Source: Gemmatimonadaceae bacterium
GTDB lineage: Bacteria; Gemmatimonadota; Gemmatimonadetes; Gemmatimonadales; Gemmatimonadaceae
Direction: 5' to 3'
Length of the DNA: 64,000 bases
NCBI GenBank assembly: GCA_036392315.1
Contig: DASVYG010000443.1
Span: 8,474-72,473 of the forward strand
Below are positions 52,870-56,037 of this stretch, in pieces. Positions within the stretch are counted from its first letter, which is position 1. The number at the start of each line of letters is the position of its first letter. The translations under genes were made by a program, and so were the position numbers. The notes under the pieces are model-generated. The model worked only from the letters and a program-made list of their open reading frames with translations. It was not told the origin of the DNA and searched no databases.

Positions 52870-53244
52870 TTACTTGATGTGCTTGTTGACGAGCTTGGTC
52901 ATCTCGAACATCGAGACTTTGCCCTTGCCACCAAACACCACACGGAGCTTGTCGTCGGCATTGATCATGCGACGCTCCTTCGCATCCTGGAGGCCATTCC
53001 GCTTGATGTAGCCCCAGAGCTTCTTCGTGATCTCGGTGCGCGGAATCGGATTGCCACCGACGATCGCACTGAGCGCGGCATCCGGCTGCTTCGGCGCCAT
53101 GAACGCCGCATTCGGCACGCGCTTCGCGCCGCCCTTCTTCTTCGCGGCCTTTCTCGCGCCGCCCTTCTTTGCTGCGCGGCCTTTCTTGCCGCCCTTCTTG
53201 GCGCCGCCCTTTTTGGCGGCCTTCTTTCCCTTCTTTGCAGCCAT
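52870..53244 (-). CDS. SWIB/MDM2-domain protein with Lys/Ala/Gly-rich histone H1-like N-terminal tail
   Basis: GGGAGAG precedes the ATG. The tail is MAAKKGKKAAKKGGAKKGGKKGRAAKKGGARKAAKKKGGAKR. The SWIB core is PRTEITKKLWGYIKRNGLQDAKERRMINADDKLRVVFGGKGKVSMFEMTKLVNKHI. Confidence 0.85.
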   Translation of the reverse strand: MAAKKGKKAAKKGGAKKGGKKGRAAKKGGARKAAKKKGGAKRVPNAAFMAPKQPDAALSAIVGGNPIPRTEITKKLWGYIKRNGLQDAKERRMINADDKLRVVFGGKGKVSMFEMTKLVNKHIK

Positions 53245-53293
53245 TCTCTCTCCCGGTAGATGGAATGGTTGGGGAGAAATTCCCCTGAAGTGT

Positions 53294-53556
53294 GTCGATT
53301 TCCCCTATGAAAACCGACCCCCTTCGACGGCGAAAGGTATAATCATCGGCGTAGGACGCAATAGGGAATTTCCGTTTTTCCCTCTGAGAAGCGTCGATTT
53401 CCCCTCTGAAAACGGCCCGCGTTCGCTCGAGAACGGGGCCGTTTTCCCTCTGACAGCCGTCGATTTTCCACCGCGTGCGTCGGGATGCACCCGCGATCCG
53501 GCAACGAAAAACCGCTCGCATTTCAGAGGAGAAATCGCGTTTTCTCCTCTGAAAAC
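53294..53556. repeat. Array of 22-bp iteron-like direct repeats (consensus nnCGwTTTyCCCTCTGAaAAC) phased at multiples of 11 bp
   Basis: Copies are at 53294-53314, 53371-53392, 53393-53413, 53437-53458 and 53536-53556. A half copy is at 53459-53475 and an inverted copy at 53521-53534. TGA anchors at 53308, 53385, 53407, 53451, (53473) and 53550 give spacings of 77, 22, 44, 22 and 77 bp. Confidence 0.85.
53521..53554 (-). terminator. Perfect 14-bp inverted repeat (6-nt loop) 2 nt after the hydrolase gene stop; possible terminator and/or protein-binding palindrome
   Basis: tttcagaggagaaa-tcgcgt-tttctcctctgaaa. On the minus strand a short U-run (gguuuuu) follows after 10 nt. Both arms are copies of the repeat unit. 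Confidence 0.5.
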
Positions 53557-55125
53557 TCAGCGAAATTGACCGGTGAGCCAGTCGGCGATCGCACCCAATA
53601 CCTCAGGCCGCACGTGCAACGACGGCAGCTTTCCATAGTCGAATCCGCCGACCGCATCGGCGACGAACAGGTGATTCGTCTGCGGAAAGAGGCGAACGGT
53701 GACCCGCGAATTTCCGGCGGCGCGGAATGCCGCGGCGAGCTTCTCAGCCTCCGACGGCGGCACCTGACGATCGGTCGCGCCCTGCAGAATCAGCACCGGC
53801 GTCGTCACTCGCCGAGCGACGATCGACGGATCGTACTCGAGAAAGAACTTCATCCACGGCGTCGTCGCGGCGAGCGAGTCGGTCGCCTTCGCGGCACGCG
53901 CGAGCGCCTCCTCGCGCGCCGCACCGGTGAGATGCGCCATGCTGTCGACGCCGTACACCTGCTGCGCGCGAAGAATCTCCCGCCCGGTCGACGCGGTCCC
54001 CGCCATGAGCACGATCGCGCGCAGCGCAGGATCGGTCGATGCAACCATCGGCGCGATCATGCCGCCTTCGCTGTGACCAACCAGCGCGACGCGCGCCGGA
54101 TCGATCTCCACGCGCGTACGGAGATACGCAACGCCGGCGCGAATGTCGTCGGCAAAATCCTGCGACGTCGCCGTTCGCGGGCCGAGATCGGATCCGTTCA
54201 CGCCGCGGTCGTCGAGACGCAGCACGGCAATTCCGCGCCGACCGAGCGTGTCGGCCAGCTCGCGAAATGGACGATAGCCTCTGAGCGCGGTCGACTCCTC
54301 GTCGCGGTCCTCGGGGCCCGAGCCCGTGATCGTCACTACCGCCGGCGAACGACCCGTCGGGCGACCGCGCGGGATCGTCAATGTCCCGCTCAACTTCAGT
54401 CCCGCCGCTGTCTGCACGACCACTTCCTCCGCGACATACGGCGCGTCGGGCGGCGCAGAATAGTCCCGGCGCGACGCGACCAGCGCGTCGAGCGCGCCGC
54501 CGCGAACGATCGTCAACGCGCGCGCCGGCAATCCTCCGCCCACAATGCGACCCGTGGGCGACACGGCCAGATGCATGGAGACTCCCGCGTAGTCGAGCGT
54601 CGCTGAGTCGGCGCCCACCCACGTGACGACCGCGGGTATCGGCCGCGGTGCACCGACGATGAACAACGGGAACGATTGCTTGCCGCCGCCCATGGCGCGC
54701 GCATGAATCATGGCCTGCTCCATGAACGCAATCGATGGGTTCACGATCGCGAGAGCGCCGTTCACGCTCGGAATGTGCGCCGGAGCGGCGGTGCCCATCT
54801 GCGCCAACACACTATCGCCGCCAATCACGAACGTCGATTGGTCGCCCAATGTATCGGTCGCGGAACGAAAGTAGTGGGTCACGAGATGCGTGATCAATCC
54901 GTCGGGGGCGAGCGTCGCGACGTATGCGAGACGTCCACCGCGCGCGCGATCGAGAAATTCACCGGTCAGCTCGTCCGCGGTTCGTGTGCTCCGCTCTACG
55001 ATGACGGTATCGACCGTGTGAATGGCCGTTTGGCTGATGAGATAGAACGACGCACGCTCGGCGGTTTGCGACGATGCTGTCGCCGCCGAGAGCACGAGCG
55101 CGGTGAATGCGAGTGCGGCCTTCAT
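53557..55125 (-). CDS. Secreted alpha/beta hydrolase (S9/dienelactone-hydrolase-like) with N-terminal beta domain
   Basis: ATG 55125 overlaps the SdpI stop (ATGA). The signal peptide is MKAALAFTALVLSAATASS. The nucleophile elbow is LVGHSEGG, with LQGATDRQVP and TNHLF also present. The 730-aa version of the ORF is rejected. Confidence 0.85.
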   Translation of the reverse strand: MKAALAFTALVLSAATASSQTAERASFYLISQTAIHTVDTVIVERSTRTADELTGEFLDRARGGRLAYVATLAPDGLITHLVTHYFRSATDTLGDQSTFVIGGDSVLAQMGTAAPAHIPSVNGALAIVNPSIAFMEQAMIHARAMGGGKQSFPLFIVGAPRPIPAVVTWVGADSATLDYAGVSMHLAVSPTGRIVGGGLPARALTIVRGGALDALVASRRDYSAPPDAPYVAEEVVVQTAAGLKLSGTLTIPRGRPTGRSPAVVTITGSGPEDRDEESTALRGYRPFRELADTLGRRGIAVLRLDDRGVNGSDLGPRTATSQDFADDIRAGVAYLRTRVEIDPARVALVGHSEGGMIAPMVASTDPALRAIVLMAGTASTGREILRAQQVYGVDSMAHLTGAAREEALARAAKATDSLAATTPWMKFFLEYDPSIVARRVTTPVLILQGATDRQVPPSEAEKLAAAFRAAGNSRVTVRLFPQTNHLFVADAVGGFDYGKLPSLHVRPEVLGAIADWLTGQFR

Positions 55126-55757
55126 CGGGAAGTCTCCTGCCTCCAGGCAAAGTAGGAATAGATCGTCGAGCCTAGCGCGAACGCGGCGACGCAAGCGATG
55201 ATGACGAACAACGCCATGGAACCGGCAACGAGCGCGCTGACGATGACGACCCCGCCGGCCACGGTCATCAGGTAGCCGCCGACGCGCTGCGTCCGCTCCC
55301 AAACCCGCTCGTTGCTGAGCGTCCACGGCGTCCGGATGCCGAACCACCAGTTCGATCGCGCGCGCGGGAGCTGGTTGCCGATCGCGATCAGCACGAGACC
55401 AAGGGCGATCGGCGCCACGCGGTGAATCGAGATCGGAAGACCGAGCGCAAATCCGAGAACCGCGAGATGAATCAGCGCGACCAAGGTAAGCACGGCCCCA
55501 ATCATGAAATCGTACGTCGGCTGGAACTTGGCGTAGTTGGCGCGACGTGGATCGATCGCCGGAAGACCGCGCATCACGCCCCACAGCACGAGCATCAAAA
55601 CCGGCATGAGGAGCGCCGCCTGCCCACGCGACTGCCATGCGTTCACTTGTCCGCGCAGGTTCCAGTGACTGGGCACCGTCTCCGGCAACCGCGGATACGC
55701 GACCGCCGATACAATCGCCGTCACGGCGATCAGCACGGCGGGATACCACTTACGCAT
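55122..55757 (-). CDS. SdpI/YhfL-family membrane protein (DUF1648 plus SdpI domains)
   Basis: LPETVPSHWNLRGQVNAWQS is DUF1648-like. NWWFGIRTPWTLSNERVWERTQRVGG is the SdpI motif. The protein has about 6 TM helices. Its start overlaps the ArsR gene by 8 nt. Confidence 0.8.
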   Translation of the reverse strand: MRKWYPAVLIAVTAIVSAVAYPRLPETVPSHWNLRGQVNAWQSRGQAALLMPVLMLVLWGVMRGLPAIDPRRANYAKFQPTYDFMIGAVLTLVALIHLAVLGFALGLPISIHRVAPIALGLVLIAIGNQLPRARSNWWFGIRTPWTLSNERVWERTQRVGGYLMTVAGGVVIVSALVAGSMALFVIIACVAAFALGSTIYSYFAWRQETSR

Positions 55758-56037
55758 TGCGCTTTCCTCCGGGTTTGCGCCGCGGCTTCACCCAGTCGAG
55801 TATGTGCTCCACGAGATCGTCGAATACGGTGGTGTTGAGCTCATACACGATCTGCTGCCCCTGCCGCTCCGACAGAATGAGTCCGGCGTCGCGGAGCTGT
55901 CCCAGGTGCCGGGATACCGTGGCCCACGCCGTCGGGAACTCCTCGGCGATCTGGCCCGACGTGCGCGGCCCGTCGCGCAGCAAGCGAAGGATCTCGCGCC
56001 GCGTGGGATCGGCCAGGGCTTTGAAGGCGTCGTTCAT
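55750..56037 (-). CDS. ArsR/SmtB-family (SdpR-like) transcriptional regulator
   Basis: FKALADPTRREILRLLRDGPRTSGQIAEEFPTAWATVSRHLGQLRDAGLI is a winged HTH of the ArsR family. Confidence 0.9.
   Translation of the reverse strand: MNDAFKALADPTRREILRLLRDGPRTSGQIAEEFPTAWATVSRHLGQLRDAGLILSERQGQQIVYELNTTVFDDLVEHILDWVKPRRKPGGKRNA

What the first reader, a model, noticed from the sequence alone, without database searches (positions are those of the whole stretch)
53278..53556. Helically phased array of 22-bp iteron-like repeats upstream of a SWIB/H1-like gene
The 313-bp spacer between the hydrolase stop (53557) and the SWIB start (53244) is visibly AT-richer than its flanks. It contains five clear direct copies of nnCGwTTTyCCCTCTGAaAAC. 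They lie at 53294-53314 (gtcgatttcccctatgaaaac), 53371-53392, 53393-53413 (gtcgatttcccctctgaaaac), 53437-53458 and 53536-53556. There is also a 5' half copy at 53459-53475 and an inverted copy at 53521-53534. The inverted copy and the last direct copy form a perfect 14-bp palindrome. I anchored each copy on the T of the conserved TGA (53308, 53385, 53407, 53451, [53473], 53550). The spacings are 77, 22, 44, 22 and 77 bp. Every spacing is an integer multiple of 11 bp, and the pattern is symmetric, so all sites face one side of the helix. Each unit embeds a TTTC-N6-GAAA dyad, which is the form of a dimer-type binding site. This architecture resembles plasmid iterons, type II parC centromeres or cooperative wrapped operators. 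No rep or par gene is adjacent. The neighbouring gene encodes a Lys-rich putative chromatin protein, so this could be an autoregulatory or nucleation site. I know of no described system with this combination.
Basis: partly seen in the sequence, partly recalled or inferred. Interest (0 to 1): 0.8.

Follow-up and report, generated by a model that had tools for sequence, protein, structure and literature searches.

The report
Phased operator array before SWIB gene
The repeats are real: a roughly 20-bp DNA motif, spaced in whole helical turns around the promoter of a lysine-rich SWIB chromatin-like gene, recurs in front of such lysine-rich genes in at least five bacterial phyla, so it looks like an undescribed, very old regulatory site whose binding protein is unknown.

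Summary
Window 53276-53556 holds six full copies, one of them inverted, plus one half copy and one degenerate copy of cgaTTTYYCCTMTGARAAncg. A scan found 5 matches where 0.01 were expected, and nothing comparable occurs elsewhere in the 64 kb.

The organism is a Gemmatimonadaceae. The array sits in the promoter region of a 124-aa gene with a Lys-rich tail and a SWIB domain. It is conserved in every orthologous spacer examined, even where the upstream gene differs. Spacings between same-orientation copies are 22, 33, 44, 66, 77-78 and 121 bp, and orthologs differ by an 11-bp indel.

The motif is not dispersed. Eight Gemmatimonadaceae/Gemmatimonadales genomes each have one locus. In 68 diverse SWIB loci a strict regex gave 27 hits in 26 kb of upstream DNA and 0 hits in 208 kb elsewhere. 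The motif also lies upstream of SWIB genes in Bdellovibrionota, Acidobacteriota and Verrucomicrobiota, and beside tiny Lys-rich ORFs in Opitutaceae and a Bacteroidetes MAG. Its orientation relative to the gene varies.

Best reading: a helically phased operator array for an unidentified sequence-specific regulator, probably a repressor, of Lys-rich nucleoid-protein genes. The iteron, centromere, REP and RNA-element readings fail. Autoregulation by the SWIB protein itself is possible but untested. I found no description of the motif in the literature searched.

The parts
53536..53556 (+). Copy c6 (CGCGTTTTCTCCTCTGAAAAC). Most distal copy, about -220 from the predicted TSS. It starts right after the hydrolase stop codon.
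   Evidence: (PWM 32 bits)
53516..53537 (-). Inverted copy (CGATTTCTCCTCTGAAATGCGA on the - strand). With c6 it forms a 14-17-bp-arm palindrome. As RNA on the gene strand this folds at -27.8 kcal/mol and is followed by GUUUUUC, so it may also terminate the hydrolase gene.
   Evidence: (I3)
53459..53475 (+). 5' half copy c5 (GTCGATTTTCCACCGCG), 22 bp from c4.
   Evidence: (family D4)
53437..53458 (+). Copy c4 (GGCCGTTTTCCCTCTGACAGC), centre about -121.
53393..53413 (+). Copy c3 (GTCGATTTCCCCTCTGAAAAC), the consensus copy, centre about -77.
   Evidence: conserved in orthologs
53371..53392 (+). Copy c2 (TCCGTTTTTCCCTCTGAGAAG), centre about -55, lying just upstream of the -35 region. It is tandem with c3 at 22 bp in the window and at 33 bp in some orthologs.
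53356..53368 (-). Invariant TTCCCTATTGCGT on the gene strand. It contains the predicted -35 (TTGCGT, 53361-53356) and resembles a partial inverted motif copy.
   Evidence: Invariant columns. The promoter assignment is an inference from TTGCNN-N16-TAnnTT being kept in all 14 aligned orthologs.
53334..53339 (-). Predicted -10 (TACCTT), which puts the TSS near 53327.
   Evidence: invariant TA...TT; inference. The sigma-70 consensus scan found nothing.
53294..53314 (+). Copy c1 (GTCGATTTCCCCTATGAAAAC), centre about +22 in the predicted 5' UTR, 77-78 bp from c2. It is the best-conserved copy in Gemmatimonadaceae.
53276..53292 (+). Degenerate copy c0 (GAAATTCCCCTGAAGTG), 22 bp from c1. It overlaps a GGGGA-loop-TCCCC hairpin that is present in only some orthologs.
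   Evidence: (D4)
53245..53271 (-). Invariant leader end ACCATTCCATCTACCGGGAGAGAGA, which includes the ribosome-binding site, directly before the ATG.
   Evidence: identical in 14 of 14 orthologs
52870..53244 (-). Regulated gene of 124 aa. Residues 1-38 form a disordered Lys/Ala/Gly-rich tail; the rest is a SWIB/MDM2 domain.
   Evidence: (PF02201, E 6e-26)

Best explanation
The array is a set of helically phased operator sites for a sequence-specific DNA-binding protein that has not been identified. That protein controls transcription of the Lys-rich SWIB nucleoid-protein gene.

Shown:
- Sites of about 20 bp (cgaTTTYYCCTMTGARAAncg) lie on both sides of a conserved promoter-like element.
- Same-orientation sites are spaced in multiples of about 11 bp.
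- The array is conserved in orthologs.
- The motif occurs essentially only in front of genes for Lys-rich (H1-tail-like) proteins, in either orientation, in at least five phyla.

Inferred:
- A regulator binds cooperatively along one face of the helix, with tandem 21-22-bp pairs as the basic unit.
- With sites at about -121, -77 and -55 upstream and +22 and +44 downstream of the predicted TSS, it wraps or loops the promoter.
- This represses, and so buffers, synthesis of an abundant polycationic DNA-binding protein. This is most likely a negative feedback on the cell's load of Lys-rich nucleoid protein.

Open questions: whether the regulator acts alone or through the peptide-binding cleft of the SWIB domain, and whether it activates in lineages where the sites only lie next to the -35.
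For: Reality and uniqueness in the window:
- 5 matches against 0.01 expected, and no other site above 16 bits in 64 kb.

Conservation in orthologs:
- The array and promoter are kept in 11 Gemmatimonadaceae metagenome loci. These include L008-L011, where a different gene lies upstream.
- They are also kept in the 14-sequence alignment, with invariant TTCCCTATTGC, TA..TT and the c1 core.

Phasing:
- Same-orientation spacings are 22, 33, 44, 66, 77, 78 and 121 bp.
- The mean resultant length is 0.73-0.84 at a period of 11-11.2 bp, against 0.41 at 10.5 and 0.08 at 10.
- L004-L007 differ from the window by an 11-bp duplication.
- The Bdellovibrionota array has spacings of 21, 42 and 53 bp.

Specificity:
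- The genome-wide 20-mer scan hit eight Gemmatimonadaceae/Gemmatimonadales genomes, one locus each, always beside SWIB.
- A strict regex gave 27 hits in 26.5 kb upstream of SWIB and 0 in 208 kb of flanking DNA in 68 diverse loci.
- The PWM gave 45 hits upstream against 3 elsewhere.
- An unbiased k-mer test on the 59 loci at or below 76% identity gave TTTCCCTC 19 observed against 0.6 expected, and CCTCTGAA 9 against 0.17.

Cross-phylum occurrence:
- Pseudobdellovibrionaceae L079 has at least six direct copies plus one inverted copy.
- Vicinamibacterales and Opitutaceae also carry it.
- Lys-rich mini-ORFs of 21-31 aa lie next to the exact 20-mer in two Opitutaceae MAGs and one Bacteroidetes MAG. 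No such ORF was found in about 1 Mb of other DNA.

DNA-level action:
- Orientation relative to the gene flips between lineages.
- The position relative to the -35/-10 varies: next to the -35, in the spacer, or downstream.
Against: - No binding protein is identified, and none is encoded next to the array in any lineage examined.
- The promoter and TSS are predicted only. The sigma-70 consensus scan found nothing.
- The sign of regulation is unproven. In Opitutaceae and some other lineages the sites lie only just upstream of the -35, which is an activator-like position.
- The spacing statistics use related sequences, so they are not independent.
- The PWM was trained on upstream sites. Only the comparison with flanking DNA and the k-mer test are unbiased.
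- Weaker sites elsewhere in the genomes cannot be excluded, because only one stringent 20-mer could be scanned genome-wide.
Confidence: 0.62

Rival explanations
1. Direct autoregulation or nucleation. The Lys-rich SWIB protein itself recognises the motif. It binds cooperatively to its own promoter and perhaps spreads from there, as Fis, H-NS and IHF control their own genes.
For: - The only factor common to all SWIB loci with the motif is the gene itself. No regulator gene is linked in any phylum.
- The motif is otherwise almost absent.
- A chlamydia-related SWIB protein is DNA-associated in vivo, with 1920 ChIP-seq peaks (PMC6426960).
- The tail is polycationic and disordered.
Against: - The domain models as a SWIB/MDM2 peptide-binding fold, and the closest structures are MDM2 and BAF60. 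No sequence-specific DNA-binding fold is evident.
- Waddlia SWIB binds all along the genome, and no binding motif is given in the passages read.
- In the UAF structure the Uaf30 SWIB region is unresolved (PMC9020658).
- The motif also accompanies Lys-rich mini-ORFs that lack a SWIB domain.
Confidence: 0.2
2. RNA-level element. The repeats act in the transcript, as a 5' UTR structure, a protein- or ribosome-binding leader, an sRNA, or the terminator of the upstream hydrolase gene.
For: - c1 and c0 lie in the predicted 5' UTR and can fold; the 92-nt leader folds at -32.6 kcal/mol with z = -2.0.
- The distal palindrome folds at -27.8 kcal/mol with z = -3.5 and is followed by GUUUUUC.
- The purine strand resembles a Shine-Dalgarno sequence.
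Against: - There is no Rfam match even at E = 10.
- The consensus fold has a covariation term of only -0.25, with 2 compensatory pairs out of 20.
- Motif orientation relative to the gene flips between and within lineages.
- Most copies lie upstream of the conserved promoter element.
- The tandem c3-c2 region folds no better than shuffles, z = +0.55.
- The U-run after the palindrome is absent in orthologs L004-L007.
Confidence: 0.07
3. Iterons of a replication origin, a partition centromere (parC-like), or recombination or arm sites of a mobile element.
For: - Direct repeats of 22 bp in helical phase, in two groups flanking a promoter, are the classic iteron or parC picture.
- In Opitutaceae the same 20-mer sits in a block beside tRNA fragments and variable cargo, which looks like an integrative-element junction.
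Against: - No rep, par, integrase or transposase gene is nearby.
- There is no DnaA box.
- The position is fixed in a conserved chromosomal synteny, AP endonuclease ... SWIB - signal peptidase.
- The viral-contig scan gave only single, chance-level hits.
- The motif follows the SWIB or Lys-rich gene across phyla, not a replicon.
Confidence: 0.03
4. Neutral tandem duplications or a dispersed REP-like repeat with no function.
For: Some copies clearly arose by local duplication: the 56-nt units 99 bp apart (D3) and the 11-bp duplication in L004.
Against: - The motif is conserved across genera and phyla.
- It is strongly enriched upstream of one gene class and absent elsewhere.
- Each genome has one locus.
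Confidence: 0.02

Closest known systems
parC centromere / ParR operator of plasmid R1 (type II partition)
   Same: Direct repeats in helical phase lie in two groups either side of a promoter. They are bound cooperatively into a wrapped complex that also represses that promoter. (From general knowledge.)
   Different: parC has ten 11-bp repeats next to parM and parR on a plasmid. Here the units are about 20-22 bp. The locus is chromosomal and syntenic, there is no par gene, and the motif follows a Lys-rich/SWIB gene across phyla.
Plasmid iterons (pSC101, P1, F, RK2) bound by Rep initiators
   Same: Direct repeats of about 19-22 bp spaced about 22 bp apart, and an inverted copy used for autorepression. 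(From general knowledge.)
   Different: There is no rep gene, DnaA box or AT-rich unwinding element. The array is conserved upstream of one chromosomal gene family.
Cross-phylum cis-elements tied to one gene family: MraZ repeats before the dcw cluster, NrdR boxes, CIRCE/HrcA
   Same: A short DNA motif, often repeated and phased, stays linked to the same target genes over very large phylogenetic distances.
   Different: In those cases the regulator is known and is often encoded at the locus. Here no regulator gene is linked. The target class, Lys-rich H1-like proteins with or without a SWIB domain, has no described regulon; literature searches found nothing.
Phased site arrays of nucleoid proteins at their own or strong promoters (Fis at fis and rrnB P1, Lrp at ilvIH/pap)
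   Same: Several sites on one helical face lie upstream of and over a promoter for an abundant nucleic-acid-binding product, giving feedback control.
   Different: Those sites are degenerate and AT-rich, and they occur hundreds of times per genome. This motif is information-rich (about 15 well-defined positions) and rare.
AraC/XylS- and MarA-type 17-20-bp asymmetric sites in tandem at about 21 bp; LysR-type paired sites next to the -35
   Same: An asymmetric site of about 20 bp, tandem pairs two helical turns apart lying next to the -35, and function in either orientation depending on distance.
   Different: There is no sequence similarity to any box I know. No such regulator gene is nearby. 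Additional downstream sites at +22 and +44 are unusual for these activators.

Membership tests
Iteron-type replication origin | Adjacent gene for a Rep initiator | tested here: not met
   The neighbours are ArsR, SdpI, an alpha/beta hydrolase, SWIB and signal peptidase I. Annotated orthologous loci likewise have no rep gene.
Iteron-type replication origin | DnaA boxes and an AT-rich unwinding element beside the repeats | tested here: not met
   There is no TTATCCACA (up to 1 mismatch) within 3.5 kb, and only 1 match in the whole window against 2.9 expected. The spacer GC is 0.52-0.58, only mildly below the flanks.
Iteron-type replication origin | Tandem direct repeats of about 20 bp in helical phase | tested here: met
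Type II parC/ParR centromere | Linked parM/parR (or other partition) genes, and a plasmid or mobile context | tested here: not met
   No par genes are present, and the chromosomal synteny is conserved across genera.
Type II parC/ParR centromere | Repeat clusters flanking the promoter they repress | tested here: inconclusive
   Copies lie on both sides of an invariant TTGCGT-N16-TACCTT element, but the promoter is only predicted (one search found no consensus match).
REP/BIME-like dispersed repeat | Many copies scattered through the genome | tested here: not met
   The array is unique in the 64-kb window. There is one locus per genome in eight Gemmatimonadaceae/Gemmatimonadales MAGs. There were 0 regex hits in 208 kb of flanking DNA.
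Cis-regulatory RNA (riboswitch or leader) or sRNA | Match to a described RNA family | tested here: not met
   An Rfam 15 scan at E up to 10 gave only two noise hits.
Cis-regulatory RNA (riboswitch or leader) or sRNA | Fixed orientation and position in the transcript, with base-pair covariation | tested here: not met
   Orientation flips between lineages. The covariation term is -0.25, with 2 of 20 pairs compensatory.
Transcription-factor operator array | Located in the promoter region of the target gene and conserved in orthologs | tested here: met
Transcription-factor operator array | Motif enriched upstream of the target gene class relative to other DNA | tested here: met
   27 hits against 0; 45 against 3; k-mer enrichment of 30-50-fold.
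Transcription-factor operator array | Independence of orientation and helical phasing of the sites | tested here: met
   an 11-bp indel between orthologs.
Transcription-factor operator array | A protein that binds the sites specifically and changes transcription | not testable with these tools
   This needs EMSA, footprinting, pull-down or ChIP, plus reporter assays.
Intrinsic terminator (distal palindrome only) | GC-containing stem directly followed by a U-run, conserved in orthologs | tested here: inconclusive
   In the window the stem folds at -27.8 kcal/mol (z = -3.5), is extended by CGCU/AGCG and is followed by GUUUUUC. Orthologs L004-L007 keep the palindrome but not the U-run, and L001-L003 lack the palindrome.

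The most novel reading that the evidence does not exclude
The motif is the signature of an ancient, pan-bacterial feedback circuit for polycationic H1-like nucleoid proteins, found in Gemmatimonadota, Bdellovibrionota, Acidobacteriota, Verrucomicrobiota and Bacteroidota. In this circuit the SWIB-domain protein is itself the sequence-reading component, or the obligatory partner of that component, and it nucleates on phased sites. That would be the first defined DNA target and the first regulatory role for a bacterial SWIB protein. It would also link the SWIB domain functionally to free-standing Lys-rich mini-proteins of 21-31 aa.
Probability: 0.2. Interest if true: 0.85.

Novelty: new member of a known kind. 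Interest (0 to 1): 0.62.

Why it matters
Bacterial SWIB proteins and Lys-rich H1-like proteins are widespread; this search returned more than 7,900 close relatives of this one protein. Yet they have no defined function or regulation. A high-information cis-motif that follows these genes through at least five phyla gives a concrete handle:

- It can be used as bait to identify the regulator.
- It can be used to define the regulon in complete genomes.
- It can be used to find unannotated Lys-rich mini-genes.
- It can be used to test whether nucleoid polycation levels are under feedback control.

The 11-bp quantised spacing also offers a natural system for studying face-of-helix cooperativity in high-GC bacteria.

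Tried and rejected
- Rfam scan of the spacer: nothing.
- Sigma-70 consensus scan: no promoter call. The promoter was instead inferred from invariant columns.
- Viral-contig scan with a 17-mer: 53 single hits, about the number I would expect by chance, and no arrays.
- RNA consensus folding of the leader: no useful covariation.
- Search for a linked regulator gene: none was found in the Gemmatimonadaceae, Bdellovibrionota or Lacunisphaera neighbourhoods. My own longest-ORF neighbour survey was too noisy in high-GC DNA to use.
- The ArsR gene two genes upstream is not the regulator of record. The ArsR-SdpI-hydrolase block is missing in L008-L011, yet the array is kept.
- Structure prediction and a Foldseek search of the SWIB protein: an ordinary SWIB/MDM2 fold, with no hint of sequence-specific DNA binding.
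- Literature: there was no paper on regulation of bacterial SWIB genes, and the motif strings appeared only in eukaryote-focused papers unrelated to bacterial gene regulation. One search was badly designed and uninformative.
- Look-up of the Lys-rich mini-proteins: they are too short for the homology search and absent from the protein collection.
- From memory I compared the motif with sigma-54, sigma-32 and ECF promoters, parS, the Noc NBS, the CodY box, and IclR and LysR boxes. Some half-sites look similar (ATTTCCC as in the NBS, ATTTTC/GAAAAT as in the CodY box), but spacing and taxonomy do not fit. These were leads only, not tests.
Full report
**Observation**

The 312-bp spacer between the hydrolase stop (53557) and the SWIB start (53244) contains the repeats exactly as described.
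- The repeat finder recovered a five-member direct family with spacings of 77, 22, 44 and 99 bp.
- It also found a 17-nt-arm inverted repeat at 53521-53554, with no gap between the arms.
- The consensus, allowing up to 3 mismatches, matched 5 times in the window, all inside the spacer, against 0.01 expected.
- A PWM built from the six copies scored them at 24-33 bits. The next best site in the 64 kb scored 16 bits.
- I add a degenerate copy at 53276-53292, 22 bp from copy 1.
- The spacer GC is 0.52-0.58, against 0.60-0.72 in the flanks.

**Context**

All genes here are on the minus strand. In order they are an ArsR-family regulator, an SdpI-like membrane protein, an S9/S33-type hydrolase, the spacer, a 124-aa protein with a SWIB domain (PF02201, E 6e-26) and signal peptidase I. 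No rep or par gene is present.

The SWIB protein has thousands of close relatives, and the named ones are from Gemmatimonadaceae. Its model has a disordered Lys/Ala/Gly-rich N-terminus (residues 1-38) and a confident SWIB/MDM2 fold. The nearest solved structures are plant SWIB, MDM2 and BAF60.

**Conservation in orthologs**

I recovered eleven metagenomic loci carrying SWIB proteins 84-98% identical to the window's. All keep the upstream region.

In L008-L011 the ArsR-SdpI-hydrolase block is absent and an AP-endonuclease gene lies upstream. Even so, two tandem upstream copies, the central conserved block and copy c1 are all retained.

In a 14-sequence alignment the following are invariant or nearly so:
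- TTCCCTATTGC
- a TA..TT element 16 nt after TTGCNN
- the c1 core GTTTTCATAGG
- the last 28 nt before the ATG

I read TTGCGT (53361-53356) - N16 - TACCTT (53339-53334) as the promoter, which puts the TSS near 53327. This is an inference; the generic sigma-70 scan called nothing. On this reading the site centres are at about:

| Copy | Centre relative to predicted TSS |
|---|---|
| c6 | -220 |
| inverted copy | -200 |
| c4 | -121 |
| c3 | -77 |
| c2 | -55 |
| c1 | +22 |
| c0 | +44 |

**Phasing**

Across the window and the orthologs, same-orientation copies are 22, 33, 44, 66, 77, 78 or 121 bp apart.
- The mean resultant length of all 48 spacings is 0.73-0.84 at a period of 11-11.2 bp. It is 0.41 at 10.5 bp and 0.08 at 10 bp.
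- These values are not independent, because the sequences are related.
- Orthologs do differ by a clean 11-bp duplication, which turns the c3-c2 spacing from 22 into 33 bp in L004-L007. That is what selection for helical phase predicts.
- In the Bdellovibrionota locus the spacings are 21, 42 and 53 bp.

**Is it dispersed?**

No.
- A 20-mer (TTTTCAKAGGRGAAATCGRC) scanned over 185,579 species genomes gave 37 loci.
- Eight of these are from Gemmatimonadaceae/Gemmatimonadales MAGs, one locus each, and all eight have SWIB next to the match.
- A 17-mer scan of viral contigs gave only single hits, about the number I would expect by chance.

**Beyond the family**

The same genome scan hit a Pseudobdellovibrionaceae MAG (L079, GC 0.45). 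There, at least six direct copies plus one inverted copy lie 130-370 bp upstream of a 125-aa gene with a Lys-rich tail and a SWIB domain.

I then fetched 80 diverse SWIB loci from metagenomes (63-94% identity, GC 0.44-0.71).
- In the 68 loci with enough upstream DNA, a strict 12-13-mer regex hit 27 times in 26.5 kb upstream of SWIB and never in 208 kb of the remaining DNA.
- A PWM at 12 bits gave 45 hits upstream against 3 elsewhere, and 29 of 68 loci were positive.
- An unbiased k-mer comparison, restricted to the 59 loci at or below 76% identity, ranked motif pieces at the top, alongside the sigma-70 -35 box. TTTCCCTC was seen 19 times against 0.6 expected, and CCTCTGAA 9 times against 0.17.

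An exact-sequence look-up placed motif-bearing loci in Vicinamibacterales (Acidobacteriota), in Lacunisphaera/Opitutaceae (Verrucomicrobiota) and in further Gemmatimonadaceae. In three Opitutaceae species two tandem copies, 21-22 bp apart, lie directly against a TTGCAT/TTGCGT -35. In 20 kb around the Lacunisphaera gene, only this site scores high.

**Orientation and position**

In Gemmatimonadaceae and in L079 the purine-rich strand is mostly the sense strand. In Opitutaceae, Vicinamibacterales and several unassigned lineages the pyrimidine strand is the sense strand. Mixed arrays also occur. Sites are found upstream of the -35, inside the spacer and downstream of the start.

This behaviour fits protein-binding DNA sites and not an RNA element. 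Several other results agree:
- Rfam found nothing.
- The leader alignment shows almost no covariation.
- The tandem c3-c2 region does not fold better than shuffles.

The distal palindrome does fold well and is followed by a U-run in the window. It may therefore double as the hydrolase terminator, but the U-run is not conserved.

**An unexpected extension**

Three of the non-SWIB 20-mer hits lie 90-270 bp from tiny, independently terminated Lys-rich ORFs:

| Locus | Source | Mini-ORF |
|---|---|---|
| L101 | Opitutaceae | MAKKKAAAKKAPKKAAGKKKK |
| L081 | Opitutaceae | MAKAKKKAVKKVAKKKTAAKKKK |
| L066 | Bacteroidetes MAG | MAKKAAKKGGKKKAAPKKKAAKKKTAKKKKK |

The same ORF filter found no other such ORF in about 1 Mb of other fetched DNA or in the window. 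The common denominator of the motif is therefore a gene for a Lys-rich, H1-tail-like polypeptide, with or without a SWIB domain.

Other Opitutales hits sit in a conserved block next to tRNA fragments and variable cargo. I did not resolve these.

**Motif anatomy**

Eighty-two distinct instances give the consensus cgaTTTYYCCTMTGARAAncg. The arms (cGATTTC / GAAAAyCG) are roughly palindromic. The most conserved positions, however, are the asymmetric centre CCTnTGA.

**Mechanism**

The best-supported reading is a phased operator array for an unidentified sequence-specific regulator, which binds cooperatively on one helical face. In this window the sites bracket the predicted promoter, and the best-conserved site (c1) lies downstream of the start. 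I therefore favour repression by wrapping or looping, most plausibly as feedback on the level of an abundant polycationic nucleoid protein.

Which protein binds is not shown. No regulator gene is linked in any lineage, and this keeps direct autoregulation by the SWIB protein alive. Against it stand three points:
- The SWIB fold is a peptide-binding module.
- A chlamydia-related SWIB protein binds genome-wide, and no binding motif is given in the passages read (PMC6426960).
- Mini-genes without a SWIB domain carry the motif.

An attractive intermediate is that the SWIB cleft binds the regulator as a co-factor. That idea is pure inference.

**Comparison with known systems**

The architecture works like parC/ParR or like the phased operator arrays of Fis or Lrp. 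In its cross-phylum fidelity it resembles MraZ repeats, NrdR boxes and CIRCE.

It is not an iteron origin or a centromere: there are no rep or par genes, no DnaA box, and the synteny is chromosomal. It is not a REP element, and it is not a described RNA family.

I found no description of this motif, or of any regulon of bacterial SWIB or Lys-rich genes, in the literature available to me.

**Verdict**

This is a real, conserved, phased cis-regulatory array. It is a new member of a known kind, with an unusually wide phylogenetic reach and an unknown binder.

Noticed in passing
L101:3660-3725 (+), L081:6254-6325 (+), L066:6026-6121 (+): Free-standing Lys-rich mini-ORFs of 21, 23 and 31 aa lie 90-270 bp from an exact copy of the 20-mer. 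L066 and L101 have clear terminators. They are too short to be in the protein collections. No such ORF turned up in about 1 Mb of other DNA.
   Followed up: partly
L087:2457-2640; also L069, L086, L097, L098: In Opitutaceae the exact motif sits in a conserved block of about 200 bp. The block holds the 5' half of a tRNA-Leu(CAG)-like sequence (ARAGORN calls no tRNA), the motif lying next to a TTGACG -35-like box, and GTGTAGAAAAA direct repeats. It is followed by variable cargo (ORFs that look like an AbiEii/AbiEi pair in L097, judged by eye and not confirmed by a domain search) and often by a contig end. It looks like an integrative-element junction or hot spot.
   Followed up: partly
L078:1380-1440 and L082:7590-7640: In L078 the motif forms a CCTCTGAAAA-ggccg-TTTTCAGAGG hairpin right after tRNA-Arg(CCT). 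In L082 two tandem copies precede a tRNA 3' fragment. The repeated closeness to tRNA sequences in Verrucomicrobiota is unexplained.
   Followed up: no
window 53245-53272 (- strand): The 28 nt before the SWIB start codon (ACCATTCCATCTACCGGGAGAGAGAATG) are identical in all 14 aligned Gemmatimonadaceae orthologs, whose proteins are only 77-98% identical. This is far more conserved than a ribosome-binding site needs. The predicted pairing CAUUC/GAAUG would cover the start codon.
   Followed up: partly
window 53320-53337 (- strand): A conserved small hairpin, CCTTTCGCCGTCGAAGG, overlaps the predicted -10 and TSS. The terminator scan flagged it. It is kept, with single-base changes, in most orthologs.
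   Followed up: no
window 55122-56037 (- strand): An ArsR-family HTH gene overlaps an SdpI/DUF1648 membrane-protein gene, forming an SdpR/SdpI-like pair. This pair plus the hydrolase is present in some Gemmatimonadaceae and absent in others (L008-L011), which suggests an indel of a three-gene block next to the array.
   Followed up: partly
window 53557-55749 (- strand): The mechanical ORF for the hydrolase is 730 aa, but called orthologs are 521-528 aa. The real start is probably near 55140, overlapping the end of the SdpI gene.
   Followed up: no
L004:3840-3870 (and L005-L007, L084): There is an 11-bp duplication (TTCTCAGATGG next to TTCTCAGAGGGG) between copies c3 and c2. It changes their spacing from 22 to 33 bp and so keeps the helical phase.
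   Followed up: yes
L128, L155, L166 and others, -12 to -14 from the ATG: In several non-Gemmatimonadaceae SWIB genes the ribosome-binding region itself (TTCAGAGGAGAAATCAAGATG) scores as a purine-strand motif copy at 15-16 bits. Either the site overlaps the RBS or the resemblance is due to the Shine-Dalgarno sequence.
   Followed up: no
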